A stretch of DNA of 64,000 nucleotides from a virus. The notes under the pieces were generated by a model that was not told the origin of the DNA, made no database searches, and worked only from the letters and a program-made list of their open reading frames with translations. The DNA is taken from the IMG/VR virus record IMGVR_UViG_3300021375_000011, positions 56,836 through 120,835 of that record, one strand, 5' to 3'. Shown here in pieces: positions 31,296 through 58,748 of this stretch. The translations under genes were made by a program, and so were the position numbers. How positions within the stretch are numbered: position 1 is the stretch's first letter; each line of letters starts with the position of its first letter.

Positions 31296-31592
31296 ATGCA
31301 AGATTTAGTCAAAAGAATACGCAAAAGATTTGATCATCAGCAAGCAAGGCTGGTGCTTAAAGAAACATATCAAGCAAAAATGATATTTGCACACAATGGC
31401 GGTATGTGGCGTGCTGGTCCAGAGCTTTTAAGTTTATGTGAAATTTGTGATGATACTGCAATACTACTAGACATATACGATACACCAGTACAAGTAAACA
31501 CCGATGAACTACAAGTAATCGCCTTACAACTCTGGCAAGAACAGATGAATGCATGGCATGCTGAATATGAAGAAATGTCAAAACAAAGATGA
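31296..31592 (+). CDS. Hypothetical protein, first gene of the modification island
   Basis: ATG at 31296 preferred to GTG 31278, which lies in the terminator tail; TAAGTA 5 nt upstream; ATGA-coupled to next gene. Confidence 0.7.
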   Translation: MQDLVKRIRKRFDHQQARLVLKETYQAKMIFAHNGGMWRAGPELLSLCEICDDTAILLDIYDTPVQVNTDELQVIALQLWQEQMNAWHAEYEEMSKQR

Positions 31593-32350
31593 CGGTTGGT
31601 GCTTTATTATATGCATTCAACAGTGATATAAAATATACCAAAATTGCTTTAGAATGTGCAAATAGGATTCAAGAATATTTAGATATTCCTGTTAGTATTG
31701 TTACAGACACTGCCTTAAACAATAGTACATTTGACAAAGAAATTATAGTAAGTAAACCAGTAACAAAAAATTACAAATACTGGCAAGACACTGATAAAAC
31801 CACACTGTGGCACAACGCTGGCAGAAGTGGAGCACTTGATGTTACACCTTATGAACGCACCTTACTGGTGGATATAGACTATATGATCAACAGTACTGTG
31901 CTTGAAAATTTACTTAACAGTACACAAAGTTTTTTTGCACACAAAAATGTTATGCCAGCAACCAAAAAAACAACTGTAGAAACATTTGGATTACACAAAA
32001 GCACAATGTGGTGGGCAACTGTAGTTGTATTTGATAAAAGCCAATTCTCAGAAGATGTGTTTGGAATGTGGCAAATGGTTGAACAAAATTATCAGCACTA
32101 TGCAAATGCATTTCAATTTGATGGTCGTAAATTTAGAAATGATTATGCCCTAAGTATTGCACTCTTAGTTGCTAACGGAAATACTGTACCAGAGCATTGC
32201 GATATTCCATGGCCTCTTGTTAATGTTGAGCCTGCAGTTGAAGTCTCTTTAGACGAGGACCGGTGGTCCATTGACGGAAAATTTTATACACGTAACCAGG
32301 ATCTACACATAATGGGCAAAAGTTATTTGGAGAATCTATATGCAATATGA
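31589..32350 (+). CDS. GT-A fold glycosyltransferase-like protein (GT8-like)
   Basis: VSIVTD, TPYERTLLVDIDY (DxD), FRND motifs. Confidence 0.7.
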   Translation: MTVGALLYAFNSDIKYTKIALECANRIQEYLDIPVSIVTDTALNNSTFDKEIIVSKPVTKNYKYWQDTDKTTLWHNAGRSGALDVTPYERTLLVDIDYMINSTVLENLLNSTQSFFAHKNVMPATKKTTVETFGLHKSTMWWATVVVFDKSQFSEDVFGMWQMVEQNYQHYANAFQFDGRKFRNDYALSIALLVANGNTVPEHCDIPWPLVNVEPAVEVSLDEDRWSIDGKFYTRNQDLHIMGKSYLENLYAI

Positions 32351-33107
32351 AGCAGACAACGGCTACATCATACCTGCAACAGAAGAATATATTCAATGTG
32401 CTGAAACACTTGCAAAAAGCATACGCTATTGGCATCCAGATGTAAAAATATGTTTGCTTACTGATATTGAATATACCAATAGTCTATTTGATTTTGTAAA
32501 ACAGTTGCCATGGGGAAACACCGGTGGTTGGTCAAACGATTGGCAAGTGTATCACGCTAGTCCATTTCATGAAACAGTAAAGTTAGAAGCAGACATGATA
32601 CTCAGTGGACCGGTGGACCATTGGTGGACACATTATCGCAAGTTTCCTGTTTGGATCAGTACTGGATGTAGGAATCAATATAATAAAACTGCATACACAA
32701 GACACTATAGAAAAATATTTGATAAAAATAAACTTCCAGATGTCTATAATGCAATTACCTATTGGCGTGTTAGCAGAGAGTCACAAGAATTTTTTAAAAG
32801 TGTTAGACAGTGCTTTGAAAAATGGGATCAAGTAAAAACAGATATACAAGGAGCACAAGACGAAGTTGCAAATACTGATTTAATTTACGCACTGAATGCT
32901 GATGGTTATATTACTCCAGGATACGGCCCACAGATTGTACATTGTAAGCAAGAAGTGTTGCGTACATCGATCGAAGATTGGCATAAAGAACTTATATGGG
33001 AGATAGACAAAGGAGTATTTCGTATAAACGGTTACAATCAACATGGGTTTGTACACTATCATCAAAAACAACTTGCAGTAGAATTTGGCAAATATTATGC
33101 TTGCTGA
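32340..33107 (+). CDS. GT-A fold glycosyltransferase-like protein
   Basis: AETLAKSI...ICLLTD, SPFHETVKLEADM (ExD), C-terminal HYH; resembles preceding gene. Confidence 0.68.
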   Translation: MQYEADNGYIIPATEEYIQCAETLAKSIRYWHPDVKICLLTDIEYTNSLFDFVKQLPWGNTGGWSNDWQVYHASPFHETVKLEADMILSGPVDHWWTHYRKFPVWISTGCRNQYNKTAYTRHYRKIFDKNKLPDVYNAITYWRVSRESQEFFKSVRQCFEKWDQVKTDIQGAQDEVANTDLIYALNADGYITPGYGPQIVHCKQEVLRTSIEDWHKELIWEIDKGVFRINGYNQHGFVHYHQKQLAVEFGKYYAC

Positions 33108-33444
33108 AGACTTTATAAAATTAATAAACGCCAGTGCTGAACTTGTAAACAAACCGGTTGACTTCACATACAGATTGTACTATAATAAAGAAACTGGTGA
33201 ACCCATTGCATATAGTATGGAAAAACTAAAAGGTGATTTTGTCACAGTTACAAAAGAGCAGTATACGGTAGGTAGATATGATGTTATTGTTAAAGATGAT
33301 TGTCTTGTAAGTACAGCTAGTATACAATATCTAAGAAAATTAGTGCCCAGTGCTGATGGTATAGCATGTAATAAAACAAATGTTTTAATCTTAGATGAAA
33401 CAAGTTCTACTAAGTGGAAACTTAAGACAAAGGAATTATTATGA
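33097..33444 (+). CDS. Hypothetical protein
   Basis: In-operon ORF overlapping both neighbours; YRLYYNKETGE motif. Confidence 0.6.
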   Translation: MLAEDFIKLINASAELVNKPVDFTYRLYYNKETGEPIAYSMEKLKGDFVTVTKEQYTVGRYDVIVKDDCLVSTASIQYLRKLVPSADGIACNKTNVLILDETSSTKWKLKTKELL

Positions 33445-33821
33445 AGTACATTATTATTGTGATATTAGGCTTAATATCATTTACTACACATGCTCAAGAA
33501 ATACCAAAACCAATGCCGAAGCCAGAAAGAACACAATTATTATTAAACATGCAGGTTCCATGTAGTCAGCAAGGCATTGAGTATCTTTCAGATATAGTAA
33601 ACGAACACGGCGAACAAGAGTTTGCAAGTGGAGTGTTTGCAATAAAACCAGTATCAAAGCCAGATTTGGTCACGGTTGATTTATTAATGTATGTCAATCC
33701 TAAAACAAGAACGTTTACAATCTTTAGCTATCAAAAAGTCGGTGACTACAATATTGCATGTGTGCTTGCCGGTGGTACAGATTTCACACCATTCTCAGGT
33801 GAGTATAGAAAGAATGATTGA
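33441..33821 (+). CDS. Small exported protein with signal peptide
   Basis: MKYIIIVILGLISFTTHA|QE signal-like N-terminus; two Cys; AAGGA RBS. Confidence 0.65.
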   Translation: MKYIIIVILGLISFTTHAQEIPKPMPKPERTQLLLNMQVPCSQQGIEYLSDIVNEHGEQEFASGVFAIKPVSKPDLVTVDLLMYVNPKTRTFTIFSYQKVGDYNIACVLAGGTDFTPFSGEYRKND

Positions 33822-34737
33822 TGTTGCTGATTTAGATTGTATATACTTGAGCTATGACGAGCCCAAAAAAGAAGAATTTTGGGTAAAAATACGCAACATG
33901 GTTCCGTGGGCTAAACGTGTAGATGGAGTACATGGATCAGATGCGGCACACAAAGCGGCTGCTGACGCAAGCGATACAGAACGTTTTATACTAATTGATG
34001 GCGATAACTTGCCACAAGAAAGTTTTTTCAACGAAACGATCGAATACAAAACAGATCAGTACGAACAAGCAGTGTACAGATGGCGTGCCCGCAACGATAT
34101 AAACGGACTTATGTATGGCAACGGAGGTATTAGCTCATGGACAAAAACGTTTGTACAAAACATGCGTACACACGAAGCAAGTGCGGGTGCAGATGAAACT
34201 GACGTAGAATTTTGCTTTGATGATCTATATTGGCCAATGTACAACTGCTATTCAACTACATATCCTGGAGAAAGTGCAAAACATGCTTTCCGTGCAGGCT
34301 TTAGAGAAGGCGTAAAGATGTGCCTTGATAAAGGTACCAAGCCCAGTGCAAGTGCGTTTAAAGAAAGTGTACATAATAGAAACTTAGATCATTTAACCAT
34401 ATGGCACAATATAGGTGCAGATACAGAACACGGACTATGGGCTATTGCAGGATCAAGACTTGGAACATATAAAACAATGTTGCAGAAGGATTGGAACTAT
34501 AAAGACGTACAAGACTTTGCAAAGTTGGATGCTATATGGGAAGATGTAAAACATCTAGCACCTGGTGAATTAGTAAGTATCAAAGCCGATGATCTTGCTA
34601 GACAACTATCTTTACCAATGAATATCCTTACACCAGTACAAAGTAAGTTTTTTAAACATCATTATCGCAGTAATTGGCACAATCAAGATATTATGACACG
34701 CGAAATTGATGTGATACGGAGCCAAGAAGGATGGTAA
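33814..34737 (+). CDS. GT-A fold glycosyltransferase-like protein
   Basis: Likely start 33814 (MIDVADLD); IYLSYDEP, RVDGVHGSDAAH, FILIDGDN (DxD), AFRAGFREGVKM. Confidence 0.7.
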   Translation: MIDVADLDCIYLSYDEPKKEEFWVKIRNMVPWAKRVDGVHGSDAAHKAAADASDTERFILIDGDNLPQESFFNETIEYKTDQYEQAVYRWRARNDINGLMYGNGGISSWTKTFVQNMRTHEASAGADETDVEFCFDDLYWPMYNCYSTTYPGESAKHAFRAGFREGVKMCLDKGTKPSASAFKESVHNRNLDHLTIWHNIGADTEHGLWAIAGSRLGTYKTMLQKDWNYKDVQDFAKLDAIWEDVKHLAPGELVSIKADDLARQLSLPMNILTPVQSKFFKHHYRSNWHNQDIMTREIDVIRSQEGW

Positions 34738-35807
34738 AAGAACTTTTTGCTGATCTCAGCAAAGATTACAAATATACAATGAATGCAATGCCTCGTGGCA
34801 AAGATGAACAAAAATCAGTTTCTTTTGCCTGTAATTTGCCACATAAAGTAGTAAGCATCGATGACAACTTAAATTGCATACTTTGTATTTGCGATGGTTG
34901 GTTGCCTATACCTGTTGGACAAGTGCAAGACTTTACAAGTTTACCTGAGATTTTTTCAAGCCCAAAAGCAAAAATTTTGCAAGCTGATATTGATGCTAAA
35001 ACCTATACATGGTGTGCAGTGCAAAATTGTGGAATTAAGCATCATAATGTTTTAAGATCTGATTATCAAGTGGTTATTAATATTGACAGGAGTTGTAATC
35101 TGCAATGTCCTAGCTGTCGGCGAGATAAATTTATGTTGACGTCTGGATCTCTGTATGATAAAAAAATAGCCGCGGCAAACCAAATACTTAACTGGTTGGA
35201 TCAGCTTGACGAACCGATCGATATTGTAACAAGCGGTGATGGTGACCCTCTTGCAAGTCTTGTTATGCGTCCATTAATAAAAAATTGGAAGTTTAAACCA
35301 AAGCAGAAGATAACAATAAAAACAAACGGCATGTTAATAAAAAAACAATTGCAAAATACTGAAATGTTACGCAGTGCTCGTTTCAGTATTAGTGTTGATG
35401 CTGGCAGCAAAGATGTGTTTGAAAAAATTAGACTCGGCGGAAACTGGAAAATATTATTAGATAATTTTGACTTCTTAGTTAAAAACAAGAAACAAAAATT
35501 TACATTTTTAAATTTTACTCTACAAAAAGATAACTATCGTGATTTAGAAAACTTTGTGAAATTATGCGAACACTACCAATTTTGTGGCGCAGTGTCAAAA
35601 CTTTGTGATTGGGGGACTTGGAATCTGCAAGATGTTTCACAACCAGATGAGTGGACTCAAAAAAACGGTTACTTTTATGAACATGATGTGTTACAATTAG
35701 AACATGCTAATTATAAAGAAGCCGCGTCAATTTGTACCCAGTTTTTAGATCATCCATTGGTATACATTGATACATCAGTGAGAGAAAAGTTGTATGAAGC
35801 AAAATAA
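34731..35807 (+). CDS. Radical SAM protein with N-terminal Cys-rich auxiliary domain
   Basis: CNLQCPSC (CX3CX2C), SGDGDP, KTNG, ISVD; N-terminal CNLP...CILCICDGW...WCAVQNC. Confidence 0.88.
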   Translation: MVKELFADLSKDYKYTMNAMPRGKDEQKSVSFACNLPHKVVSIDDNLNCILCICDGWLPIPVGQVQDFTSLPEIFSSPKAKILQADIDAKTYTWCAVQNCGIKHHNVLRSDYQVVINIDRSCNLQCPSCRRDKFMLTSGSLYDKKIAAANQILNWLDQLDEPIDIVTSGDGDPLASLVMRPLIKNWKFKPKQKITIKTNGMLIKKQLQNTEMLRSARFSISVDAGSKDVFEKIRLGGNWKILLDNFDFLVKNKKQKFTFLNFTLQKDNYRDLENFVKLCEHYQFCGAVSKLCDWGTWNLQDVSQPDEWTQKNGYFYEHDVLQLEHANYKEAASICTQFLDHPLVYIDTSVREKLYEAK

Positions 35808-37224
35808 AGGCGATGAGGTAAACAAAGATTTTAAATCTAAGTTTCTCAGTGATGCTGAAATAGCAAAACAAAAGCTGGATACAGTAAGTTCAAGTTTCTG
35901 TTTGGCTAAATGGAAACAACTTAGTTTGCATTTGACAACCGGTATGAACAACAGTTGTTATCATCCTCCACTGCACAGAGCTGATGCTGATGCTATCAAA
36001 CTCGACCCCGGTGCATTACACAACACAGAACACAAGAAGCAACAACGTAAGATGATGCTAGAAGGCACACGCCCGCCAGAGTGTAGTTACTGTTGGGCAA
36101 TGGAGGATAATGGCAAACTAAGTGACAGACACTATCGTTCTGGCGAGCCTTGGGCAATGAAGGACTTCGAAACTATAAAGAATGTTCCGTGGGATCAGAA
36201 TATAGTTCCTAGTTATGTTGAAGTAGACTTTAACAGTGCTTGTAATCTTAGTTGTAGTTATTGTTCGCCGCAGTACAGTAGTAGTTGGATGAAAGAAACC
36301 ACACGAGAAGGTGCATGGCCAACCTCAACACCACACAACGACCCTAGCCACTTTGTAGGAGAACGCAGACCAATACCCGCAAGAGAACACAATCCATATG
36401 TAGAAGCGTTTTGGGAATGGTGGCCCTCACTGTATCCAGAACTTGAACATTTTAGAATGACTGGTGGCGAACCAATGATGGATAAAAACACATATCGTGT
36501 ATTTGATCATGTATTACAAAACCCATCACCAAAACTACATTTGAGTACTACATCTAACTTCAGTGTTGAAGAAAAACTTTGGCAAAAGTATAAGGCCTAT
36601 GTAACAATGCTTTGTGAAAAATCAAGCACTGTAGAACATTTCATGCAGTATGTTAGTCTTGATGGAATGTTTGAACCAGCAGAATACATGCGGCATGGAT
36701 TGGACTTTAATTTGCTTTGGGACAGAGTAAACCAGTTTCTTAATGATATTCCAGAACGTAACAGTATTACGTTTATTATTACAATGAACAATCTCAGTAT
36801 CACCACACTTAAAAATTTATTTGCTGGCATACTAGGACTAAGGCAAATATACAGCAACACTTATCAACGTATATGGTTTGATACACCGGTGTTGCGTACA
36901 CCTACTTGGCAAAGTTTGCAAATACTTCCTGAAAGTTATGTACATGAGTTAGAGCTTTGCAAGATGTGGATGGATGATAATTTGGAAAAACCAGAAAAAC
37001 GTTTCAAAGGATTTAAAGATTACGAAGTAGCCAGACTAGACAGAGACATTGCTTGGATGCGTAACGGACAAAACTTAGATTCTAAGTATATACAACAAAA
37101 CAAAGCAGACTTTTACAGATTCTTTAATGAGCATGATAGGCGCAGAGGTACAAACTTTTTAAAAACCTTTCCTGACATGAAAACATGGTGGAATGAGTGT
37201 AAATATTTGGCCGATAATTTTTAG
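35794..37224 (+). CDS. N-terminal twitch-type radical SAM protein
   Basis: CNLSCSYC, TGGEP; N-terminal CLAKW...SCYH...CSYCW. Confidence 0.9.
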   Translation: MKQNKGDEVNKDFKSKFLSDAEIAKQKLDTVSSSFCLAKWKQLSLHLTTGMNNSCYHPPLHRADADAIKLDPGALHNTEHKKQQRKMMLEGTRPPECSYCWAMEDNGKLSDRHYRSGEPWAMKDFETIKNVPWDQNIVPSYVEVDFNSACNLSCSYCSPQYSSSWMKETTREGAWPTSTPHNDPSHFVGERRPIPAREHNPYVEAFWEWWPSLYPELEHFRMTGGEPMMDKNTYRVFDHVLQNPSPKLHLSTTSNFSVEEKLWQKYKAYVTMLCEKSSTVEHFMQYVSLDGMFEPAEYMRHGLDFNLLWDRVNQFLNDIPERNSITFIITMNNLSITTLKNLFAGILGLRQIYSNTYQRIWFDTPVLRTPTWQSLQILPESYVHELELCKMWMDDNLEKPEKRFKGFKDYEVARLDRDIAWMRNGQNLDSKYIQQNKADFYRFFNEHDRRRGTNFLKTFPDMKTWWNECKYLADNF

Positions 37225-37226
37225 AA

Positions 37227-37233
37227 ATAATTA
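37227..37233 (+). promoter_or_regulatory. Late-promoter-like variant 5 nt before ATG
   Basis: ATAATTA-TACAT-ATG(37239) fills the 14-nt gap between two radical SAM genes; no RBS. Confidence 0.45.
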
Positions 37234-37238
37234 TACAT

Positions 37239-43418: not shown

Positions 43419-43439
43419 AAACAAATAGAGTTACTTAAA

Positions 43440-47668: not shown

Positions 47669-47756
47669 TAATCTTATTAATAAGATTAAACTAGAGGTAC
47701 GATATCGTAAGAAACTTAAACAACTACGGAAAAAGGACCCGTATGTTTACAAATGA
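47652..47756 (+). CDS. 34-aa basic peptide, copy 1 (MITWINNLINKIKLEVRYRKKLKQLRKKDPYVYK)
   Basis: Manual translation; AGAAGG upstream; fills the gap between two genes; paralogue at 48924. Confidence 0.78.
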   Translation: MITWINNLINKIKLEVRYRKKLKQLRKKDPYVYK

Positions 47757-48927: not shown

Positions 48928-49025
48928 AATGGATTAGAAATCTTATCAGTAAGATCAAACTAGAAATACGATACAGAAAAAAACTTAAAGAACTACGGAA
49001 GAGGGATCCTTTTATATACAAATGA
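48924..49025 (+). CDS. 33-aa basic peptide, copy 2 (MKWIRNLISKIKLEIRYRKKLKELRKRDPFIYK)
   Basis: Manual translation; AAAGGT upstream; ATGA-coupled to both the methyltransferase and metK. Confidence 0.82.
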   Translation: MKWIRNLISKIKLEIRYRKKLKELRKRDPFIYK

Positions 49026-51631: not shown

Positions 51632-51939
51632 AAGAAAATGAACTAAGACAACGTGTGATTGAATCATTACAAAAAGTCTACGATCCAGAAATGCCCAGTG
51701 TAAGTGTATACGACTTAGGCTTGATATACAAACTTGAAATAGATGGCGATAGGTGTATGGTAGAACACACACTTACATCAATGGCATGTCCTTTTGCTGA
51801 TCAAATCTGTAATGACATTGAACAAGCAATGATCAATACTGAAGGTGTGCGTGCTATAGATAGACAGTTGGTATTTGAACCGCAGTTTACAATGGAAATG
51901 GTTCCAGAAGAAACCAAATTAATTATGGGTTGGTACTAA
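51622..51939 (+). CDS. DUF59/SufT/PaaD-like Fe-S cluster maturation protein
   Basis: VYDPEM..SVYDLGLIY and TLTSMACP motifs. Confidence 0.88.
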   Translation: MQLEENELRQRVIESLQKVYDPEMPSVSVYDLGLIYKLEIDGDRCMVEHTLTSMACPFADQICNDIEQAMINTEGVRAIDRQLVFEPQFTMEMVPEETKLIMGWY

Positions 51940-52046
51940 TGGATACAAGACTAATATTTGGCTTACTTGCTTTGCCTGTACTTGCTTATATTGCATACTA
52001 TGTTGGTTTAGAACTTTGGTGCTATGCGTATGGACTACTATATTAA
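51939..52046 (+). CDS. 35-aa hydrophobic peptide (MDTRLIFGLLALPVLAYIAYYVGLELWCYAYGLLY)
   Basis: Manual translation; TAATG-coupled to the SufT-like gene; fills the gap to the convergent gene (overlapping stops in TTAA). Confidence 0.6.
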   Translation: MDTRLIFGLLALPVLAYIAYYVGLELWCYAYGLLY

Positions 52047-53083
52047 AGATAAGTTTCCAAACCACCTTTTCGTCTAATGTCTTGTGTGCAACAACTCACT
52101 CCGCCGTCCCAGAAATAACTGTGTCTTAGTTCTGAAATAATTGGATTTATTCTGTGTTTCTCACAATAATCAAAAACCTGCTTATTGTACGCACTAAAGA
52201 TAACATTCTCTTCATCTAATACCAAACAGTTAACGTCAAACACTGTGTCGCTTACATAGCCGACCCATTCTTTAAGATAGGTATCAACAAATTTGGTAAA
52301 TTCTTCTGTAGGAGTTTGTCCTTGTACATACCAAGCACCGTTGAAGTTTTCTTCTTTAAATTTGCCAACTGCCATTGCATGTGCTATAGTACTATGTTCT
52401 AGTTTGCTTACGTCCCATCCTGGAAAGTCTGATGCTAAATCTAACTGGTCATCCCATTTGCTACTTAACAGGACTCCTGGCTTTAGTATTGCAAACACTG
52501 CATCACCATGTCCGTCTGTTATTGCTTCGTGAAAAGTATATCTACTGTCAAGGCAGTTTTCCTGTATCCATTTGCTTTGCTCAGGTTTAAGATAGTCACT
52601 GTTATCAAAGAATATGTCGGTACCAACACGCACTATACAACTTGCACTGGCCCCATTTAATACACAGTCTGGATCCCAATATTCTCCATGCGGATTAACA
52701 ACTTGATCGCCGTACTCTGCACATATTTCATCTAGTTCGCTAACTTTAAGCACTCGCAAAAGTTTATCTCCTAAACTGATTTGCCAGTCTCTTGGAGTAA
52801 GCGGAGGCACAGGTGCACCAGGATTTTCACCTTCTGCAGGTTTGGTTTGCCATAGTGCAAATTTATCTTTATCAGGCAACGCTGGTCGAAGTACTTTTGC
52901 ACCAAATGTTTCGCAAGTCTTTTGTAAGTTATCTAAATCTTCATTTGTTTCCGCAAGTATTTGTTGTAATTGATTACGCACTTGAGCATCTTCAATGAAA
53001 TCAAAATAATTAGGAGTATATGCTCTTCCTACTATAACTTCTTCAAGAGGTTGCCAACTGGTGTATGCACTTACTTTAGACAT
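52043..53083 (-). CDS. Amidinotransferase family protein (glycine/inosamine-phosphate type)
   Basis: SWQPLEEVIVG, PRD, HGD, DVNCLVLDE, terminal GGVSCCTQDIRR with catalytic Cys. Confidence 0.82.
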   Translation of the reverse strand: MSKVSAYTSWQPLEEVIVGRAYTPNYFDFIEDAQVRNQLQQILAETNEDLDNLQKTCETFGAKVLRPALPDKDKFALWQTKPAEGENPGAPVPPLTPRDWQISLGDKLLRVLKVSELDEICAEYGDQVVNPHGEYWDPDCVLNGASASCIVRVGTDIFFDNSDYLKPEQSKWIQENCLDSRYTFHEAITDGHGDAVFAILKPGVLLSSKWDDQLDLASDFPGWDVSKLEHSTIAHAMAVGKFKEENFNGAWYVQGQTPTEEFTKFVDTYLKEWVGYVSDTVFDVNCLVLDEENVIFSAYNKQVFDYCEKHRINPIISELRHSYFWDGGVSCCTQDIRRKGGLETYL

Positions 53084-53958
53084 ATTAATATATTTTCCGT
53101 TTCTTTGTTTAGAAATAATTGTTGATTATGCAAAAGATCTTCTTTACAATCAGTGTACATGACGTGAATTTTTTTTGACTTTGCAATTCTACACATTTCC
53201 GTACAAACTGCCTCCCAACGTTCAGTTGGATCTTGTATAGTATCGTATGAATGATCAACAACATGATCAAATGTGCGATAGCCCATTTCACGTAGTTGTT
53301 GTACACTACCACATGCGCCTGCAATTACAAATGGTTGACTATTCTTTATTGCTTTAAAAACTTTTTCAGTAAGACGTACTGGACCTGTTAAGTTGCTTTC
53401 TATAACAAAATTAAAATAGGCATCACTGTGATGTAAACCCACAGTGTATTTCATATCTGCATGTTCATCAGCAGTTAATAAGTCGCAATGAAAAGGAGCA
53501 AGTTTTAAAAAGAATTCTGTATGATGTTTTAGACTGCCTAAATTGCTGGTATCGATTGGATTTATATCGTCTTCCACAGTGATTTGGTTGTTGTAACCAA
53601 AGTAACCTTGTTCGTGTAAACCCTTACTCCACAACCGTGCCATTGTATACGCACGCCATTCCTTGTGCGTACGAACTAATGCAGTAAACTTCTTACTGCG
53701 TTCTTGTGTGTGATAAACTGTGGGCATACTTCTATTACGATGCCTATAAAACAGTTCATCGCTACACATATAGGCAGTACCTGCAAGATCATGACTTTTA
53801 GTGGATTCAGTGGTAAAATGCACATTATCTTCTGAAAAACCTGCACTTACGGCATCTCTAATGTAGGTTTTTTTAACAGATTCTCTATTGGTCAAAAAAG
53901 TTAAATTTATTTGTTTATCACCTACAATGTTACGTATGTTTTCTATTATATTTGCCAT
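53071..53958 (-). CDS. Glycosyltransferase-like protein with TEK motif
   Basis: FNFVIES..LTEKVFKAI..QPFVI...GYRTF..SYD; resembles the GT10-type (I/V)TEK donor-binding region. Confidence 0.55.
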   Translation of the reverse strand: MANIIENIRNIVGDKQINLTFLTNRESVKKTYIRDAVSAGFSEDNVHFTTESTKSHDLAGTAYMCSDELFYRHRNRSMPTVYHTQERSKKFTALVRTHKEWRAYTMARLWSKGLHEQGYFGYNNQITVEDDINPIDTSNLGSLKHHTEFFLKLAPFHCDLLTADEHADMKYTVGLHHSDAYFNFVIESNLTGPVRLTEKVFKAIKNSQPFVIAGACGSVQQLREMGYRTFDHVVDHSYDTIQDPTERWEAVCTEMCRIAKSKKIHVMYTDCKEDLLHNQQLFLNKETENILICLK

Positions 53959-55001
53959 GTATTCATCATTTCAGTAAGTTCTTTCCAAAGCAATTTTTCA
54001 AACTGGTCACTATAAAACCAGTTGTAATTGTGCTCTACAGTGCTATTTACTGCGGTTTGCAAGGTGGTCTTTTCTTTTTGGCTCATTGTATTAATAGATT
54101 GTAACAGTTTGCCTATCTCGTATGTACGCACACCGTCTTCAGCTTCGTCATATGATTCGTCCCAAAAATCTCCAAATGTCCGAAAGCCATAACGACGTAG
54201 ATATTCTAAACTGCCCTTGCAACTCTGTATTATAAAAGGTTGTTGCATTACAATTGGCTTAAATGATTTTTCAGTAAGATGGTTCTTACGTCCTCTGAAA
54301 ACTGTTTCAGTAACAACATGAACCAAACTATTGTTTGCTTGTTCCCATAAATCAATTTTATGACTCTGTGCCGCATAACCTGAACCGTTATCAATCATAA
54401 GTGGCAATCGCACTTTAGGACAATCTAGTTCATATTTTACACATAATAATTCTAAACTTTGTCCTTCATATGGACATACATCTGGAAACGATATAAGATT
54501 TTTATCTAGCAAATCACGCCCAACAAACTGTTGAAGCATTTCTATTCTGTGTCTACGTTCACCACCAATTATATTATTAGGACAAAGAAAAGTATTATAA
54601 GGCTTGCGTTCTGAAAATTTTTGTGCTAAACTAGTACGATTATAACCACGATACCAATCAAGTGCAGCCCAAGCATGAAAAAAGTAATAACCATTTTCAA
54701 GTCCATAAGTATCACACACCCATGCAATATCATCACTTTGATATTCACTATGTATAATTTTACACGAGTTTTTTTGAGAGTAAATAGGCTGAAATTGTTC
54801 AATAAAAGATTTGAATCTATATCGATGTACTGGTTCTTGATCCCAAAATATAATTCTATTATTGCACTGATTGTCAACTGCTGGTTTGTTAACTATATTT
54901 TTAAATTCTGTACTACCAAACGGATCAAACCAATGCAATCCGTTTGTGCCTTTTGCAAGAGGCAAAAATACATTTTCATAAATTTCGTCGATACGTATCA
55001 T
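53946..55001 (-). CDS. Glycosyltransferase-like protein with TEK motif (paralogue of neighbour)
   Basis: VHVVTET...LTEKSFKPI..QPFII...GFRTF..DESYD. Confidence 0.55.
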   Translation of the reverse strand: MIRIDEIYENVFLPLAKGTNGLHWFDPFGSTEFKNIVNKPAVDNQCNNRIIFWDQEPVHRYRFKSFIEQFQPIYSQKNSCKIIHSEYQSDDIAWVCDTYGLENGYYFFHAWAALDWYRGYNRTSLAQKFSERKPYNTFLCPNNIIGGERRHRIEMLQQFVGRDLLDKNLISFPDVCPYEGQSLELLCVKYELDCPKVRLPLMIDNGSGYAAQSHKIDLWEQANNSLVHVVTETVFRGRKNHLTEKSFKPIVMQQPFIIQSCKGSLEYLRRYGFRTFGDFWDESYDEAEDGVRTYEIGKLLQSINTMSQKEKTTLQTAVNSTVEHNYNWFYSDQFEKLLWKELTEMMNTWQI

Positions 55002-56787
55002 GTTTGATAAATGTTACTCATACTCAAAAGAAGCTCTTGCACAGTGTAAGACTAGGTACTTATGGGTGCTTGATAAGCACTGCGATTATTCTCACTTTGA
55101 CTTTAGTTGGGAGCCGGCACCCTGGGAAAGCCACTTTAGACATGCGTTTGCTTCACAATGGCAAAAGGATTCTGGCACATATTTAATTCCAAAAGCAGGT
55201 TACACTGAAACAAAGTACAACACAGATAATACTGTTGTAAGACTACCTGATGTAACAAAGTGGGATAGCATGGATAGCGACTTTGACTATTCGTGGCATC
55301 ACGACGTTACTGAACCGCCTTACATATACCAATTTGGAACTCAACATCAAACAACAGGTGGCCCGAGATATACTGTAGCAGGTGCTGAAAGCACAAAGTT
55401 TGTAGGTGATATTACATCACGGGTGCGTGCAGTTGCTGGTGGAGCAGTATTAATTAAGCACTTGAACACACCATATGATGCAAACGTAAACATCATTGAC
55501 AGCACACGTTTCATAAGCAATTATCTTGATACACTTAAAAGAATACTAAAAAAGATCGATTCAGAATACGTATGGGTAATAAGCGACTTATGCGATTACG
55601 CAGACTTTGACTTCAGTTGGCATCCTGCACTGTGGCAAAATCGCATGCTACATGTTTTTCCTAGCAATGAACAAAAGTTTGGAGACACATTTTTTATTCA
55701 TATAGAGAGTTTTTTAGAAACTGTAAAAGACATTAAACTGTTAGAATATTACACGCCTTTAAATTTTGTTGACAAACGTGTGAAACGTAAACCGCCTACT
55801 CAAGTAAAGTTTGACACAGATAGTGTCGTTAATGCAGTATGGTCACATGAATTTACCACACCGGTTGTCCAGTTTTATAGATATCAAATTGAAAAGCCAG
55901 TAACAATAAGTTTATGGCAAGAAAGATTACGCACAGTTGTGCCTCTTAAAAAAGGTAGCGAATCAGTGCTTGTACCAAAAGATGCAAAAAACTATATCAA
56001 ACAACAGGTTTATGATTATGAATGGATTGATAAAAAACATAAGCCTGCTGATGCTACGCCATTGGATATTGTGTATATCAGCAATGGCGAAAGCAATGCT
56101 GAACGTAACTGGGTTTGGCTTAACAGTGTGCATCAAGGAAATAATAGAATTGTTAGAGTAGATGGTGTTAAAGGAAGAGCTGAAGCATATCGTGCAAGTC
56201 TTGAAGCAAGTAATACAGACTGGGCATTTTGTGTGTTTGCTAAACTAGAAGTAAACAAAGATTTTGATTGGACATGGCAACCTGACAGATTACAAGAGCC
56301 TAAGCATTATATTTTCCATGCACACAATCCTGTAAATGGGTTGGAATATGGACATATGGCAATGATTGCTTACAATAAACAACTCGTAGCAAATAACCAA
56401 GCTCAAGGTTTAGACTTCACACTTGATCAAGAACATGAAGTTGTTCCGTTGCTTAGTGGGATTGCTCGTTATGCAGATGATCCTTGGATTGCATGGCGAA
56501 GTGCGTTTCGTGAATGTTTAAAATTAAAACATTCGTTACCAAACATAGACAACAACTATCGTTTAAGCCAGTGGTTACAAGCGGATACAACGTCTGCTGT
56601 GGCTGGATGGAGTGCAATAGGTGCACAAGATGCAGTAAATTATTATGAATCCGTTGATGGAGATTTTGCTAGTTTACGTTTAACATATGAATGGGAATGG
56701 TTAGCTGATCACTTGTTCAAGCACCACAACCTAACACCTGATCAATTATGTACTCAACTTCAAGATCAGTCAGTTCAGGATAGATAG
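55000..56787 (+). CDS. Multi-domain glycosyltransferase-like protein
   Basis: Three DFDFSW(H/E)P-type internal repeats; C-terminal domain resembles 33814-34737 (DIVYIS, RVDGVKG, AWRSAFRECLKL). Confidence 0.62.
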   Translation: MFDKCYSYSKEALAQCKTRYLWVLDKHCDYSHFDFSWEPAPWESHFRHAFASQWQKDSGTYLIPKAGYTETKYNTDNTVVRLPDVTKWDSMDSDFDYSWHHDVTEPPYIYQFGTQHQTTGGPRYTVAGAESTKFVGDITSRVRAVAGGAVLIKHLNTPYDANVNIIDSTRFISNYLDTLKRILKKIDSEYVWVISDLCDYADFDFSWHPALWQNRMLHVFPSNEQKFGDTFFIHIESFLETVKDIKLLEYYTPLNFVDKRVKRKPPTQVKFDTDSVVNAVWSHEFTTPVVQFYRYQIEKPVTISLWQERLRTVVPLKKGSESVLVPKDAKNYIKQQVYDYEWIDKKHKPADATPLDIVYISNGESNAERNWVWLNSVHQGNNRIVRVDGVKGRAEAYRASLEASNTDWAFCVFAKLEVNKDFDWTWQPDRLQEPKHYIFHAHNPVNGLEYGHMAMIAYNKQLVANNQAQGLDFTLDQEHEVVPLLSGIARYADDPWIAWRSAFRECLKLKHSLPNIDNNYRLSQWLQADTTSAVAGWSAIGAQDAVNYYESVDGDFASLRLTYEWEWLADHLFKHHNLTPDQLCTQLQDQSVQDR

Positions 56788-57811
56788 GCAAACTAAGCAC
56801 ACGTCTTGACAAACTTGTACTGCTTGCCAACATTGGCTTTACACCTTCAAAAGAACCTATTTCATTTATACCATATTCATAGTGTACTTTGGTATCAACT
56901 CCTGCTTCTTTCAAACAATCTTGCATGATATTTCTGTCTGTGTCTATATCAATAACGAATTTGTGAAAACAATGTTCTTGTGCATTAGAACTGTCAATCA
57001 AACATCTAGTGCTTGACTTTTCGCTGAGTCTTTCCATCCAGTAGAGACCAATTGTTCGTCTGCGTTCTTGCCATTCGTCGATGTATTTTGTTTTAATCAG
57101 CATTGTTGCACAGTCTATTTCACTCATACGGCTGTTTGTGCCGCCAGTGATATGAGCTGATCCATTGGCTCTGTACCACCTTACAAATCTATCAATACTG
57201 GCTACGTCTGTAACAACTGCCCCACCATTTGCATAGTTTGCTAGATTCTTTGTAGGATCAAAACTTATTGCACTGGTACTAATTCTTTTACCATCCCAAC
57301 TAAGCCAATGTTGAGCTGCATCTTCTACAACAATCCAGTCCTGCTCGTCAAGCATATCTTTGAACTTTTGTGTTTGGTAGTTCTTTAAACTGTTGCCATA
57401 CAAGCCAACCAAACATACTGCCATGTTATTATAATGATGTCCTGCAACACTGTCTATATCTAACATGCCATATGAATCTGTGTCAGCAACTACAACTTTC
57501 CATCCTGCATTCGTCCATGCATTAGCAGTTGCACGATAGGTCAAGTTAGGAATGATAACCTGCGGATGACTAATATTCAATTGTTTGTAGTGATACTTGG
57601 CAATTGCTTCTAGTGCAACAGTGCCTGAACCAATTGTGATAGCATGATCAGAATTATTACGTTTTGCCAACCATGATTCAAATTCTTCTGTGTAGTTGCC
57701 ATCCATAAGTTGGCCACTACGCAATACAATATCAATGGTATCGAGAATTTCGCTTCGTAGTTGATTATACTGTTTTTTTAGACCAGTAAACGGAATCTTT
57801 AATCCACTCAT
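56717..57811 (-). CDS. DegT/DnrJ/EryC1/StrS-family PLP aminotransferase
   Basis: SGTVAL, EDAAQ, SFDPTKNL (PLP lysine), NSRMSEI, LSLPIYPEL. Confidence 0.92.
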   Translation of the reverse strand: MSGLKIPFTGLKKQYNQLRSEILDTIDIVLRSGQLMDGNYTEEFESWLAKRNNSDHAITIGSGTVALEAIAKYHYKQLNISHPQVIIPNLTYRATANAWTNAGWKVVVADTDSYGMLDIDSVAGHHYNNMAVCLVGLYGNSLKNYQTQKFKDMLDEQDWIVVEDAAQHWLSWDGKRISTSAISFDPTKNLANYANGGAVVTDVASIDRFVRWYRANGSAHITGGTNSRMSEIDCATMLIKTKYIDEWQERRRTIGLYWMERLSEKSSTRCLIDSSNAQEHCFHKFVIDIDTDRNIMQDCLKEAGVDTKVHYEYGINEIGSFEGVKPMLASSTSLSRRVLSLPIYPELTDLEVEYIIDQVLGCGA

Positions 57812-58748
57812 AATAGTTTTCAAGTCCTTCTTCTATTTCTATTTTTGGATTAAATTTAAATGCCATCATTGCACTTGTACAATCAAGTGTGCCTCTGCTG
57901 GGCATATTTGTTTTCTTGGCTCTAACTTTTACAGTGCCTTTGCCTACTAACTTTACAATAGCATTTGCTACATCTAATATTTTTTCTTTTTTGCCTCTGC
58001 TGATATTATATGTGCCAGTTACATCTTTAGTAACACTTGCAAGTGCAATGCCAGTGGCAGTATCTTTTACATAGGTAAAATCCAATGTTTGGTCTTTGCC
58101 GTTTACATACAAGGTCTCATCAGCTATTGCACGTTTAAAAAATGTGCCTATTACTCTATTGCTAACATCAAGTGGTCCGTATACCGCAGTTGGTCTTATT
58201 ATTACATAACTCTGCCCAGTGGTACGATTGTATTCTTTTACCAACTCTTCGCCTGCTATTTTCCAAATGCTATACTGTCCACATGGATTAAGTGCGGTTT
58301 CCTCTGATGCTTCGTCAAAGTCGCCATACACCATACTAGAACTTATATAAACAAACTTTGCAGTTTTATGACGTGTGCAACAATCTAATAGGTTTGCAGT
58401 GCCTACGCACATAGTTCTGGCTGCTTCAATTGGATTGTCTTTAACTGCGGCTTCGTTTGGAAAACTAGCTAAGTGTATAACAACATCTGGCTGGAATGTT
58501 TTAAATATTTCATCTATTTCTGGTACACAAATGTCTTCTTTAAAGATTTGTGTGTTAGTATCAATTGCTTTAAGGCGTTGTGCAAACAGATATTCAAGTT
58601 CTTCTTTTGGAAGACTGCCATATGTAGTAAATGCGTCTACTGCTTGTACATCATTTTTTCTGGATTTTTGTAATTCTTTAATTACATTGTGTCCAATAAG
58701 GCCAACACCGCCGGTTACTAGTATCTTTTTCTTTTTAGCTGTTGCCAT
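57765..58748 (-). CDS. NAD-dependent nucleotide-sugar epimerase/dehydratase
   Basis: ILVTGGVGLIG, VIHLAS, ISSSMVYG, YSIWK (YxxxK), DFTYVKD. Confidence 0.92.
   Translation of the reverse strand: MATAKKKKILVTGGVGLIGHNVIKELQKSRKNDVQAVDAFTTYGSLPKEELEYLFAQRLKAIDTNTQIFKEDICVPEIDEIFKTFQPDVVIHLASFPNEAAVKDNPIEAARTMCVGTANLLDCCTRHKTAKFVYISSSMVYGDFDEASEETALNPCGQYSIWKIAGEELVKEYNRTTGQSYVIIRPTAVYGPLDVSNRVIGTFFKRAIADETLYVNGKDQTLDFTYVKDTATGIALASVTKDVTGTYNISRGKKEKILDVANAIVKLVGKGTVKVRAKKTNMPSRGTLDCTSAMMAFKFNPKIEIEEGLENYYEWIKDSVYWSKKTV

What the first reader, a model, noticed from the sequence alone, without database searches (positions are those of the whole stretch)
31296..58748. Phage-encoded ~27-kb radical-SAM/glycosylation island with its own SAM and Fe-S support genes
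Seen: right after the tail-module terminator there are seven CX3CX2C radical SAM genes, six glycosyltransferase-like genes, a methyltransferase, a carbamoyltransferase, an amidinotransferase, a PP-loop ligase-like protein, a DegT aminotransferase and an epimerase, interleaved with metK, an MTA/SAH nucleosidase and a SufT-like gene. Established: MetK makes SAM; the nucleosidase removes 5'-deoxyadenosine and SAH, which inhibit radical SAM enzymes and methyltransferases; DUF59 proteins aid Fe-S maturation. Inference: one pathway building a heavily tailored glycan or small molecule, possibly on virion proteins given its position and late-type boxes at 31285 and 37227. The product is unknown to me. 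Best candidate here for an undescribed system.
Basis: partly seen in the sequence, partly recalled or inferred. Interest (0 to 1): 0.9.

Follow-up and report, generated by a model that had tools for sequence, protein, structure and literature searches.

The report
Jumbo-phage radical-SAM sugar-tailoring gene island
An uncultured marine giant phage carries, right behind its baseplate and fibre genes, a real and widely conserved 27-kb block of soluble sugar-handling enzymes built around five copies of an unstudied iron-sulfur "radical SAM" enzyme; it most likely builds a chemically edited sugar decoration, but its product and target are still unknown.

Summary
Window 31296-58763 has seven CX3CX2C radical SAM genes, MetK, an MTA/SAH-nucleosidase-like gene, DUF59, a methyltransferase, a NodU/TobZ-type carbamoyltransferase, an AGAT/StrB1-type amidinotransferase, DegT and an SDR. 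The "six glycosyltransferases" are three paralog pairs with no Pfam hit; only one pair has weak GT-A fold support. The PP-loop call is weak.

Five rSAM genes are old paralogs of NCBIfam NF033640 (N-terminal twitch). All five, in the same order, occur in 45 of 47 adequately covered related phage loci. The three upstream GT-like genes are there in 40/41 to 69/71 loci. MetK, nucleosidase, DUF59, B12-rSAM, methyltransferase and the PP-loop-like gene are variable accessories.

NF033640 was found in 2 of 401 cellular genomes, both beside sugar genes. One is an O-polysaccharide Wzm/Wzt cluster with Wzt fused to the rSAM. No island protein passed a crude transmembrane screen.

Best reading: a cytoplasmic glycan-building and radical-editing pathway, possibly acting on fibre proteins. 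Target and chemistry are untested.

Cultured Ralstonia phage RsoM2USA carries a mini-version, so the idea can be tested.

This scan has already reported the same island type on other DNA (at least ten follow-ups). In the papers I searched I found only a gene count, and NF033640 has no characterised member there.

The parts
31248..31275 (+). Hairpin (11-bp stem) plus T-run that separates the fibre genes from the island. A similar hairpin is conserved at this place in relatives.
   Evidence: upstream sequences of relatives
31296..31592 (+). First island gene (about 100 aa, no family). Core member.
   Evidence: no Pfam or PHROG hit; upstream of the rSAM block in 24 of 24 covered loci
31589..32350 (+). 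GT-like protein A1 (invariant D95-x-D97). Paralog of the next gene. Family unproven.
   Evidence: alignment A2; hhalign to A3 prob 97.8%, E 9e-13; no Pfam or PDB hit; 40 of 41 loci
32340..33107 (+). GT-like protein A2, paralog of 31589.
   Evidence: phrog_1903, unknown function; 61 of 62 loci
33085..33444 (+). Small conserved protein of unknown function.
   Evidence: tblastn hit in 43 of 77 loci
33441..33821 (+). Variable small protein with a signal-peptide-like N-terminus.
   Evidence: sequence; 18 of 77 loci
33811..34737 (+). GT-A-like protein B1 with invariant DGD. It is the most conserved core gene (mean column identity 72%). The listed ORF start at 33691 is probably too early.
   Evidence: ortholog lengths; A4; AF2; VIA Z<=6.5, GT-A or nucleotidyltransferase folds only; 69 of 71 loci
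34731..35807 (+). Accessory radical SAM enzyme (generic core, Cys-rich N-terminus).
   Evidence: PF04055 48.5 bits; 9 of 77 loci
35794..37224 (+). N-twitch radical SAM paralog 1 (NF033640).
   Evidence: 299.6 bits, cut-off 170; own orthogroup, SH-aLRT 98
37239..38597 (+). N-twitch radical SAM paralog 2 (NF033640). 52% identical to RsoM2USA ORF202.
   Evidence: 285 bits
38581..39864 (+). N-twitch radical SAM paralog 3 (NF033640).
   Evidence: 405.9 bits; 77 related viral loci
39861..41663 (+). Accessory radical SAM enzyme, B12-binding class-like.
   Evidence: PF04055 43.8 bits and PF02310 18.5 bits, below cut-off; best NCBIfam hits are B12-rSAM families, all below cut-off; 4 of 77 loci
41620..42852 (+). 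N-twitch radical SAM paralog 4 (NF033640).
   Evidence: 338.6 bits
42849..43418 (+). Accessory MTA/SAH-nucleosidase-like protein (189 aa).
   Evidence: PF01048; NCBIfam nucleosidase models below cut-off; 15 of 60 loci
43440..44603 (+). Accessory protein with a TGGIDS motif. The PP-loop/Asn-synthase likeness is weak.
   Evidence: PF00733 10 bits, E 0.04; 1 of 77 loci
44594..45907 (+). N-twitch radical SAM paralog 5 (NF033640).
   Evidence: 292.4 bits
45897..46952 (+). Core protein of unknown function. Confident model: cyclophilin-like barrel with a helical insert.
   Evidence: AF2 pLDDT 86; Foldseek nothing; VIA Z about 8 to cyclophilins; 51 of 52 loci
46949..47668 (+). Accessory protein of unknown function.
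   Evidence: phrog_7084; 5 of 77 loci
47652..47756 (+). Micro-ORF copy 1 (34 aa, ends DPYVYK). It overlaps the methyltransferase start.
47743..48927 (+). Accessory SAM-dependent methyltransferase.
   Evidence: PF13847 71 bits; 3 of 77 loci
48924..49025 (+). Micro-ORF copy 2 (33 aa, ends DPFIYK). ATGA overlap with metK.
49022..50125 (+). S-adenosylmethionine synthetase (MetK), accessory.
   Evidence: three Pfam domains; about 50-56% identity to diverse bacteria
50126..51631 (+). NodU/CmcH/TobZ-type carbamoyltransferase.
   Evidence: PF16861 171.5 bits and PF02543 119.1 bits; at least 37 of 52 loci
51622..51939 (+). DUF59 / SufT-like Fe-S assembly protein, accessory.
   Evidence: PF01883 55.8 bits
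52043..53083 (-). AGAT/StrB1-family amidinotransferase.
   Evidence: three aligned stretches cover the length; Cys331 and His192 align with the AGAT Cys and His
53071..53958 (-). GT-like protein C1 (family A7, TEK...GFRTF signature). Unproven.
   Evidence: no Pfam or PDB hit
53946..55001 (-). GT-like protein C2, paralog of 53071.
55000..56787 (+). Core 595-aa protein. N-terminal W-x-W...DY..FDFSW repeats. C-terminal domain homologous to 33811-34737 but without its DGD.
   Evidence: A8; hhalign prob 99.4%, E 1e-21
56717..57823 (-). DegT/DnrJ/EryC1-family sugar aminotransferase.
   Evidence: PF01041 184.5 bits
57765..58763 (-). NDP-sugar epimerase/dehydratase-family SDR.
   Evidence: PF01370 145.3 bits; best NCBIfam hit is dTDP-glucose 4,6-dehydratase, 149 bits, below cut-off 365

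Best explanation
The island is a phage-encoded, cytoplasmic pathway that builds and chemically edits an unusual sugar or oligosaccharide.

Shown: the gene content; its co-inheritance; five anciently diverged N-terminal-twitch radical SAM paralogs (NF033640), each kept as its own orthogroup; and the sugar context of the family in cellular genomes.

Inferred mechanism:
- The SDR and the DegT aminotransferase turn a host NDP-hexose into an NDP-amino-sugar.
- The GT-A-like and other GT-like proteins assemble a short glycan on a soluble acceptor.
- The five rSAM enzymes each perform a different H-atom-abstraction step on sugar carbons (epimerisation, dehydrogenation, deoxygenation or C-C chemistry).
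- Clade-specific cassettes add a guanidino group (amidinotransferase), a carbamoyl group, and O/N- or C-methyl groups.
- MetK, the nucleosidase and DUF59 are optional boosters of SAM supply, by-product removal and Fe-S loading.

The acceptor is most likely a phage structural protein made from the adjacent fibre/baseplate genes. My probability that this is glycan or sugar tailoring is about 0.55-0.6. My probability that the target is a virion protein is about 0.35.
For: Gene families.

Co-inheritance:
- All five N-twitch genes, in the same order and strand, in 45 of 47 related loci with enough flank.
- Upstream GT-like genes in 69/71, 61/62 and 40/41 loci.
- The 45897 gene in 51/52 loci.
- The full downstream arm (amidinotransferase to SDR, then ThyX) is retained in two (near-)complete relatives.
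- Each of the five paralogs forms one orthogroup (SH-aLRT 98-100) in a quick tree of 80 rows.

Sugar context of NF033640 in cells: it was over cut-off in 2 of 401 genomes.
- One is a chromosomal cluster of RmlC, RmlD, Wzm, Wzt (with Wzt_C) fused in frame to an N-twitch rSAM, three more tandem copies, a TylF O-methyltransferase and a WbsX glycosyltransferase.
- The other lies beside an SDR and a GT2.

Soluble acceptor: 0 of 34 proteins examined have a 19-residue hydrophobic segment (Kyte-Doolittle >= 1.6). No flippase, polymerase, ABC exporter or lipid-carrier transferase was detected by Pfam.

Position: the island follows the baseplate wedge, a 4531-aa ORF, a fibre-like protein and a 28% Ser+Thr protein.

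The same order is seen in cultured Ralstonia phage RsoM2USA: baseplate wedge, giant virion protein, 30276-like gene, two GT-like A genes, GT-A-like B, N-twitch rSAM.

Assembly: contigs of a DNA run from another sample match the island with 0-1 mismatches over pieces of 2-4 kb.
Against: No glycosyltransferase family membership could be shown for any of the six GT-like genes by sequence.

The only fold evidence is middling: Z 6.5 on a pLDDT-68 model.

No member of NF033640 has a known reaction in anything I could search. The closest solved structures match only the rSAM core at E 2.6e-8 or weaker.

The SDR scores far below the dehydratase cut-off. No nucleotidyltransferase was seen in the island.

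The cellular evidence rests on two genomes. The transmembrane screen is crude: it did not even flag the signal-peptide-like N-terminus at 33441.

The virion target rests on gene order only.

The late-promoter signal before the island is weak.

RNA-library contigs touch most of the island, but the tool warns that this does not show transcription.
Confidence: 0.55

Rival explanations
1. The island makes a free small molecule, an aminoglycoside-, aminocyclitol- or nucleoside-antibiotic-like metabolite, rather than a glycan attached to a macromolecule.
For: The enzyme set mirrors secondary-metabolite tailoring: StrB1/AGAT-family amidinotransferase, TobZ/NodU-type carbamoyltransferase, DegT, twitch-type and B12-type rSAM enzymes. 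All proteins are soluble by a crude screen.
Against: Six GT-like genes in three families fit an oligosaccharide better. The amidino-, carbamoyl-, methyl- and B12 genes are clade-specific add-ons, absent from the distant subclade that keeps the core. Cellular relatives of the rSAM family lie in polysaccharide loci. No exporter or resistance gene was seen. The island keeps a fixed position behind the fibre genes.
Confidence: 0.15
2. The enzymes remodel a host envelope polysaccharide (O-antigen or capsule) during infection, for example to block superinfection or to release progeny.
For: The only cellular contexts found for NF033640 are surface-polysaccharide-type loci. One has Wzt fused to the rSAM. 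The other lies next to prophage-like genes (ERF, ParB-methylase).
Against: No membrane protein, lipid-carrier transferase, flippase, polymerase or ABC exporter is in the island. The phage looks lytic and T4-like, with a late sigma factor and a baseplate. The host machinery could in principle be borrowed, so this reading is not excluded.
Confidence: 0.12
3. The twitch-domain rSAM enzymes modify a peptide or protein (RiPP-like crosslinks, epimerisation, or a scaffold peptide), and the sugar genes are a separate function.
For: SPASM/twitch rSAM enzymes are best known as peptide maturases (recalled). A nearly invariant 33-aa micro-ORF lies in the island.
Against: The micro-ORF is absent from the subclade (L061-L069, L071, L083) that keeps all five rSAM genes. 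It tracks the carbamoyltransferase instead: all 37 CarbT loci have it, none lacks it. No RRE, protease or peptide exporter was detected. Cellular relatives lie in sugar clusters.
Confidence: 0.1
4. The island hypermodifies phage DNA with a tailored sugar.
For: T-even and other phages glycosylate DNA; the Cell Reports 2024 paper on this was seen only as a reference inside PMC12619734. The enzymes are soluble. A thymidylate synthase gene (ThyX) abuts the island.
Against: A PF00303 (ThyA / hydroxymethylase family) gene is present in only 2 of 5 large relatives, and it sits in the ThyX slot. So a hydroxymethyl-pyrimidine handle is not a clade feature. The island is linked to fibre genes, not to replication genes. 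The family context in cells is polysaccharide.
Confidence: 0.08

Closest known systems
NCBIfam NF033640, N_Twi_rSAM (twitch domain-containing radical SAM protein)
   Same: Five island genes score 285-406 bits against a cut-off of 170, over the whole model. The four-Cys N-terminal domain, CX3CX2C and GGEP are invariant among the five.
   Different: The family is catalogued only. I found no characterised member. Here it is expanded to 6 copies over cut-off on this contig, and to 7-13 matches at E<=1e-5 in complete relatives.
Mycobacteriophage virion glycosylation (Freeman et al. 2023; seen only as cited in PMC12619734)
   Same: Phage-encoded glycosyltransferase-like genes sit next to structural genes. 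A glycan shield on virion proteins is the leading idea for the target.
   Different: Those systems use a few ordinary GTs. This island adds five to seven rSAM enzymes, amidino and carbamoyl transfer, and SAM/Fe-S support genes. No virion glycan has been shown here.
ABC-transporter-dependent O-polysaccharide clusters (Wzm/Wzt)
   Same: A bacterial cluster holds four tandem N-twitch rSAM genes, one fused to Wzt, with Rml genes, methyltransferases and a WbsX GT.
   Different: The phage island has no Wzm/Wzt or any membrane component.
Aminoglycoside/aminocyclitol tailoring (StrB1, TobZ, BtrN, GenK-type enzymes)
   Same: The same enzyme classes are present: amidinotransferase, carbamoyltransferase, DegT, twitch and B12 rSAM enzymes.
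   Different: No inosamine or 2-deoxystreptamine synthase was seen. The amidino and carbamoyl genes are add-ons to a GT + rSAM core. BtrN did not appear among the PDB sequence matches of the rSAM profile.
T4-like marine viral genome with 12 radical SAM genes plus paaD (Nishimura et al. 2017, PMC5332604; passage read)
   Same: A T4-like marine phage rich in rSAM genes together with a DUF59/PaaD-type Fe-S protein.
   Different: That paper counts the genes as Fe-S-related. In the passage I read it proposes no sugar pathway, synteny or family assignment. Its supplementary table could not be opened.

Membership tests
Radical SAM superfamily | CX3CX2C cluster motif and a match to PF04055 | tested here: met
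   Seven ORFs have the motif. PF04055 is over its cut-off for 34731, 39861 and 41620. It is under cut-off but backed by NF033640 for the other four.
NF033640 N_Twi_rSAM | Full-length HMM score over the curated cut-off (170 bits) | tested here: met
   299.6, 285.0, 405.9, 338.6 and 292.4 bits. 34731 and 39861 do not qualify.
NF033640 N_Twi_rSAM | Auxiliary Cys-rich twitch/SPASM-like domain N-terminal to the rSAM core | tested here: met
   PF13186 SPASM matches at residues 11-98, ahead of the core, in three of the five. Four Cys are invariant in all five (C33, C52, C94, C97 of 38581).
NF033640 N_Twi_rSAM | A defined substrate or reaction | not testable with these tools
   No characterised member was found.
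Amidinotransferase (AGAT / StrB1 family) | Sequence-profile match across the fold, with the active-site Cys and His (which residues are catalytic is recalled for AGAT) | tested here: met
   E 2.8e-18 to 2jdx in three stretches. Cys331 aligns with the Cys of AGAT 'FHC' and His192 with the His of 'HIDATF'. The His just before the Cys is Ser here.
GT-A fold glycosyltransferases | Rossmann-like GT-A fold with a DxD motif | tested here: inconclusive
   33811-34737 has an invariant DGD. The model has pLDDT 68. VIA best Z is 6.5 over residues 2-141 and all 50 listed rows are GT-A or nucleotidyltransferase folds. Foldseek best E is 0.059. The homologous domain in 55000-56787 lacks the DGD.
Glycosyltransferase family 8 (for 31589 and 32340) | Match to Pfam PF01501 | tested here: not met
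   No match at E<=10 in the whole contig, while the model matched in 6 control genomes.
GT10-like fucosyltransferases (for 53071 and 53946) | Family HMM or fold match; the TEK donor-binding motif is recalled | tested here: inconclusive
   An invariant T-E-K...G..F signature is present. No Pfam hit in any of 21 members and no PDB sequence hit. The fold was not predicted.
NodU/CmcH/TobZ carbamoyltransferases | Carbam_trans_N and Carbam_trans_C domains over cut-off | tested here: met
   119.1 and 171.5 bits. The NodU equivalog scores 142.7 against a cut-off of 1000, so it is not NodU itself.
PP-loop ATP pyrophosphatase / asparagine synthase | Match to PF00733 including the SGGxDS loop | tested here: inconclusive
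   10 bits, E 0.04, profile positions 4-55 only. No Pfam, NCBIfam or meaningful PDB hit.
B12-binding radical SAM enzymes | B12-binding domain plus rSAM core | tested here: inconclusive
   PF02310 scores 18.5 bits, below cut-off 32.1. The top NCBIfam hits are all B12-rSAM families, but below their cut-offs.
MTA/SAH nucleosidase | PNP_UDP_1 fold and an equivalog-level score | tested here: inconclusive
   PF01048 scores 46 bits, over its cut-off. All NCBIfam nucleosidase equivalogs are below cut-off; the best is 81.2 against 129.
Phage virion glycosylation systems | A glycan covalently attached to virion proteins | not testable with these tools
   Only gene position is available.

The most novel reading that the evidence does not exclude
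A whole clade of abundant aquatic jumbo phages, together with the cultured Ralstonia phage RsoM2USA, decorates its fibres or baseplate with a glycan that is edited after or during assembly by a set of five dedicated radical SAM enzymes. This would be a new kind of carbohydrate radical chemistry (glycan-level epimerisation, deoxygenation or C-C bond formation), shared with some bacterial O-polysaccharide pathways. The carbamoyl cassette would work through an invariant DPFIYK-ended micro-peptide acting as carrier or translational sensor.
Probability: 0.2. Interest if true: 0.9.

Novelty: new variant of a known kind. Interest (0 to 1): 0.7.

Why it matters
Phage-encoded glycosylation is known from a handful of systems that use ordinary glycosyltransferases. 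Here a large and environmentally common phage clade is involved: the search with one rSAM gene found 7379 proteins at E<=0.001 among the 8000 candidates scored. DNA contigs of this phage turned up in runs from 14 studies.

This clade commits about 8% of a roughly 330-kb genome to a pathway whose central enzyme family has no known reaction. If the product is a virion glycan, it bears on host recognition, particle stability and escape from defence or grazing. It would also open a new branch of radical SAM carbohydrate chemistry that also exists in bacterial O-antigen loci.

The mini-module in cultured phage RsoM2USA makes the question testable at the bench.

Tried and rejected
Searches that gave nothing useful:
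- Sequence-profile searches of the GT-like families A2, A3, A4, A7 and A8, and of the 45897 family A5, against PDB.
- Pfam on all 21 members of A7.
- ESM Atlas for 45897: no usable hit and no model.
- Megablast of the island against cultured phages: no match.

The MetK search in bacterial genomes gave about 50-56% identity to many phyla, so it offers no host clue.

The moraphage paper (PMC12619734; abstract and passages read) describes another lineage and does not mention radical SAM.

Complex prediction of the carbamoyltransferase with the micro-peptide returned 'no answer' (score 0.00, controls not run). This says nothing either way.

RNA-library contigs from one study touch 26 and 24 of 30 bins of 31000-50999. 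By the tool's own warning this does not show transcription, and uncovered bins mean nothing.

The careful tree did not finish in the time allowed, so the quick tree was used. It has 13 of the 77 loci, the window and 11 outside rows. Its joins of long branches, including bacterial clade with paralog 4, are flagged as unsafe.

Searches returned the same 401-genome sample, so they count once.

Downstream presence counts are lower bounds, because the loci end 10 kb from the query gene.

I considered the micro-ORF as an rSAM substrate and rejected it on its distribution.

Supplementary tables of PMC5332604 and PMC8504454 could not be opened. They may list the rSAM genes or virion proteins relevant here.

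Full report
**Where the window lies.** The window is the last 64 kb of a 120.8-kb viral contig that CheckV rates 35% complete. Upstream of the finding lie:
- a late-sigma-factor gene;
- virion, baseplate-hub and baseplate-wedge genes;
- a 4531-aa ORF;
- a fibre-like protein;
- a 317-aa protein with 28% Ser+Thr and no Cys.

The baseplate wedge is 33-35% identical to those of Atu_ph07, SCTP-2, XbC2, Serratia phage BF and other jumbo myoviruses. No cultured phage matches the island at the DNA level. Related contigs with terminal repeats are 328-344 kb. Contigs of a DNA run from another sample reproduce the island in pieces of 2-4 kb with 0-1 mismatches, so it is not an assembly chimera.

**Checking the observation.** Seven ORFs carry CX3CX2C and match radical SAM models. 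Several other calls hold by curated or near-curated scores: MetK, a PNP/UDP-family nucleosidase-like protein, DUF59, a class-I methyltransferase, a two-domain carbamoyltransferase, DegT and an SDR.

The gene at 52043-53083(-) has no Pfam hit. A profile of 13 orthologs, however, finds human AGAT (E 2.8e-18), StrB1, HsvA and SxtG. The AGAT active-site Cys and His columns are kept, as read from the printed alignment. Which residues are catalytic is recalled, not tested.

The hairpin and T-run at 31248-31275 are real. A similar hairpin precedes the first island gene in relatives.

**What does not hold as written.**
- The six "glycosyltransferase-like" genes hit no glycosyltransferase model by sequence.
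- They fall into three paralog pairs:
  - 31589 and 32340 (hhalign 97.8%);
  - 33811-34737 and the C-terminal domain of 55000-56787 (99.4%, E 1e-21);
  - 53071 and 53946.
- Only 33811-34737 was folded (pLDDT 68). Foldseek gave nothing at E<=0.001. The exhaustive aligner gave Z<=6.5 over residues 2-141, and all 50 listed rows were GT-A glycosyltransferases or nucleotidyltransferases. Together with an invariant DGD this is suggestive, not proof.
- The PP-loop call rests on 10 bits.
- The "late boxes" are weak. TATAAATA occurs once, at 30197. A (A)TAAATAC box precedes five structural genes, but 31285 reads TAAGTAT. In relatives a late-like box lies before the first island gene in 16 of 48 distinct sequences, against a 4.8% background. 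Several of the sequences printed carry TATAAT-like boxes instead.

**The five N-twitch rSAM genes.** Genes 35794, 37239, 38581, 41620 and 44594 score 285-406 bits on NCBIfam NF033640, whose cut-off is 170. They are 22-28% identical to one another. All five share four N-terminal Cys, CX3CX2C and GGEP.

In a quick maximum-likelihood tree each paralog is a separate orthogroup with SH-aLRT 98-100. The tree has 80 rows: 13 of the 77 loci, the window and 11 outside sequences. The careful search did not finish. The duplications therefore predate the clade, and each copy has been kept.

The contig has a sixth copy over cut-off far from the island. Complete relatives have 7-13 matches at E<=1e-5, and 8-15 PF04055 matches. 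The closest solved structures match only the rSAM core: an unnamed rSAM protein at E 2.6e-8, then the tetraether synthase, viperin, BlsE and MoaA.

**Co-inheritance.** A search with 38581 found 77 related viral loci. Presence of the core genes:

| Gene(s) | Present in |
|---|---|
| All five paralogs, same order and strand | 45 of 47 loci with at least 3.5 kb upstream and 6.5 kb downstream |
| 33811 gene | 69 of 71 |
| 32340 gene | 61 of 62 |
| 31589 gene | 40 of 41 |
| First island gene | 24 of 24 |
| Ser/Thr-rich 30276 gene | 22 of 22 |
| 45897 gene | 51 of 52 |

The two exceptions to the five-paralog rule are distant relatives with other N-twitch sets.

Downstream counts are lower bounds, because the loci end: carbamoyltransferase 37 of 52, amidinotransferase 24, the 55000 gene 19, DegT 15, SDR 12. 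Two (near-)complete relatives extended by hand keep the whole arm through ThyX and the HNH gene.

The most distant subclade has only GT-like A1/A2, B1, five rSAM genes, 45897, 55000, DegT and SDR.

The accessories are variable:
- nucleosidase: 15 of 60 loci;
- MetK: at least 12 of 52;
- DUF59: at least 8 of 52;
- 34731 rSAM: 9 of 77;
- B12-type rSAM: 4 of 77;
- methyltransferase: 3 of 77;
- PP-loop-like gene: 1 of 77.

So there is a conserved core plus swappable tailoring and support cassettes.

**What the family does in cells.** NF033640 was over cut-off in 2 of 401 cellular genomes. Searches returned the same sample, so they count once.

In one genome the contig also carries DnaE and AccA, so it is chromosomal. 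There the genes lie in this order: RmlC, RmlD, Wzm, then an 854-aa open frame. In that frame Wzt (ABC ATPase plus Wzt_C) runs without a stop into an N-twitch rSAM. Three more tandem N-twitch genes follow, then a TylF-type O-methyltransferase, another methyltransferase and a WbsX glycosyltransferase.

In the other genome the rSAM gene lies between an SDR, a GT2 and two unknown genes, next to ERF and ParB-methylase genes.

Two cases are few. Both are sugar contexts, though, and the Wzt fusion ties the family to a polysaccharide pathway.

**Soluble machinery.** None of 34 proteins examined has a 19-residue segment with mean hydropathy of 1.6 or more. Pfam finds no flippase, polymerase, exporter or lipid-carrier transferase. 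The screen is crude, but it argues for a cytoplasmic acceptor.

**A cultured handle.** Ralstonia phage RsoM2USA (343.8 kb) has the following genes directly after its baseplate wedge (ORF362) and giant virion protein (ORF361, found by mass spectrometry per PMC8504454; passages read):
- an SDR;
- a 30276-like gene;
- homologs of 31589 and 32340;
- a 33811 homolog (36% identity);
- an N-twitch rSAM (35%);
- a second 33811-like gene.

At a second locus it has a 52%-identical ortholog of 37239 and a 43%-identical carbamoyltransferase. In the terms I searched, the paper does not mention radical SAM. All these genes are annotated as hypothetical. Vibrio phages K566 and K567 carry more distant N-twitch arrays.

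**The other proteins.**
- 45897 gives a confident model (pLDDT 86) with no Foldseek match. The exhaustive aligner finds cyclophilin-like barrels at Z about 8, with a helical insert at residues 58-170. Its function is unknown.
- 55000-56787 has N-terminal repeats of a W-x-W...DY..FDFSW..P motif. Its C-terminal domain is homologous to 33811-34737 but has lost the DGD.

**The micro-ORF.** Two 33-34-aa ORFs (47652-47756 and 48924-49025) end in ...RYRKKLK(E/Q)LRK(R/K)DP(F/Y)(I/V)YK.

- The same ORF, with an almost invariant C-terminal half, is in 42 of 77 loci.
- All 37 loci with a carbamoyltransferase hit have it. Five more have it where the contig ends first. Thirty-five loci have neither.
- It is missing from the distant subclade that keeps all five rSAM genes. 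It therefore belongs to the MetK/carbamoyltransferase/methyltransferase cassette, not to the rSAM enzymes.
- Its stop often overlaps the next start as ATGA.
- RsoM2USA has an unannotated 36-aa ORF ending RKQDPFIYK, one gene upstream of its carbamoyltransferase.
- A complex prediction gave no answer.
- A leader or arrest peptide, or a C-terminal carrier for carbamoyl chemistry (by analogy with HypF-HypE, recalled), are both open.

**Rivals.**
- DNA hypermodification is disfavoured. A ThyA/hydroxymethylase-family gene occurs in only 2 of 5 large relatives, and there it occupies the ThyX slot.
- Host-envelope remodelling fits the cellular contexts, but the island lacks any membrane component.
- A free aminoglycoside-like metabolite fits the amidino, carbamoyl, DegT and rSAM enzyme set. 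Those genes, however, are add-ons to a GT + rSAM core.
- A peptide target is disfavoured by the micro-ORF's distribution and by the sugar contexts.

**Literature and the scan.** Nishimura et al. 2017 noted a T4-like marine viral genome with 12 rSAM genes and paaD (passage read). Searches returned nothing relevant for these combinations:
- radical SAM with jumbo phage and glycosyltransferase: 0 papers;
- radical SAM with jumbo, metagenom* and bacteriophage: 7 papers, none on this;
- radical SAM with O-antigen, polysaccharide and SPASM: 1 paper, unrelated;
- radical SAM with glycan, epimerase and twitch: 1 paper, unrelated.

This scan has reported the same island type on other genomes at least ten times, with the same reading and the same closest family. 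My results agree with those reports. They add the Wzt fusion, the RsoM2USA mini-module and micro-ORF, and the peptide-carbamoyltransferase contingency.

**Verdict.** The feature is real and conserved, and in print it is essentially undescribed. It is best read as a cytoplasmic pathway for sugar building and radical editing. The link to the virion fibres is plausible but untested. The chemistry of the central enzyme family is unknown.

Noticed in passing
window 47652-47756 and 48924-49025 (+); L180 about 14211-14321: A 33-34-aa micro-ORF with a nearly invariant C-terminal half (...RYRKKLKELRKRDPFIYK). It is translationally coupled to the next gene. It is present in every locus that has the carbamoyltransferase (37 of 37) and in cultured phage RsoM2USA, where it is unannotated. 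It is absent where the carbamoyltransferase is absent.
   Followed up: yes
L175:8579-11143 (-), unnamed bacterial genome G111 contig C19: A single 854-aa open frame fuses the O-polysaccharide ABC exporter ATPase Wzt (with its Wzt_C domain) to an N-twitch radical SAM enzyme. Three more tandem copies follow.
   Followed up: partly
window 51939-52046 (+): A 35-aa strongly hydrophobic ORF (MDTRLIFGLLALPVLAYIAYYVG...) coupled by TAATG to the DUF59 gene. It is the only membrane-like peptide I saw in the island.
   Followed up: no
window 14529-28124 (+): A 4531-aa ORF directly after the baseplate wedge, with only faint FG-GAP and CBM5/12 hits. It sits in the same position as the 2541-aa virion protein ORF361 of RsoM2USA. 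I did not test homology between the two.
   Followed up: no
window 45897-46952 (+): A core island protein with a confident predicted structure (pLDDT 86): a cyclophilin-like barrel with a long helical insert. It has no Foldseek match and no sequence family.
   Followed up: partly
window 58735-59415 (-) and relatives G002, G004: The thymidylate-synthase slot next to the island holds ThyX here. In two complete relatives a ThyA-family gene lies close beside the island instead.
   Followed up: partly
own contig G000:C1:4439-5593 (-) and 40924-41481 (-), outside the window: Further N-twitch rSAM genes scattered elsewhere in the phage genome: one over the family cut-off and one partial.
   Followed up: no
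window 33691-33821: The longest ORF of the GT-A-like gene starts at 33691 and overlaps the signal-peptide gene 33441-33821. Orthologs are about 308 aa, so the true start is probably near 33811.
   Followed up: partly
window 60982-62238 (-): A large HNH endonuclease gene (phrog_1314, E 3e-112) just beyond the island. It is conserved at this place in two relatives.
   Followed up: no
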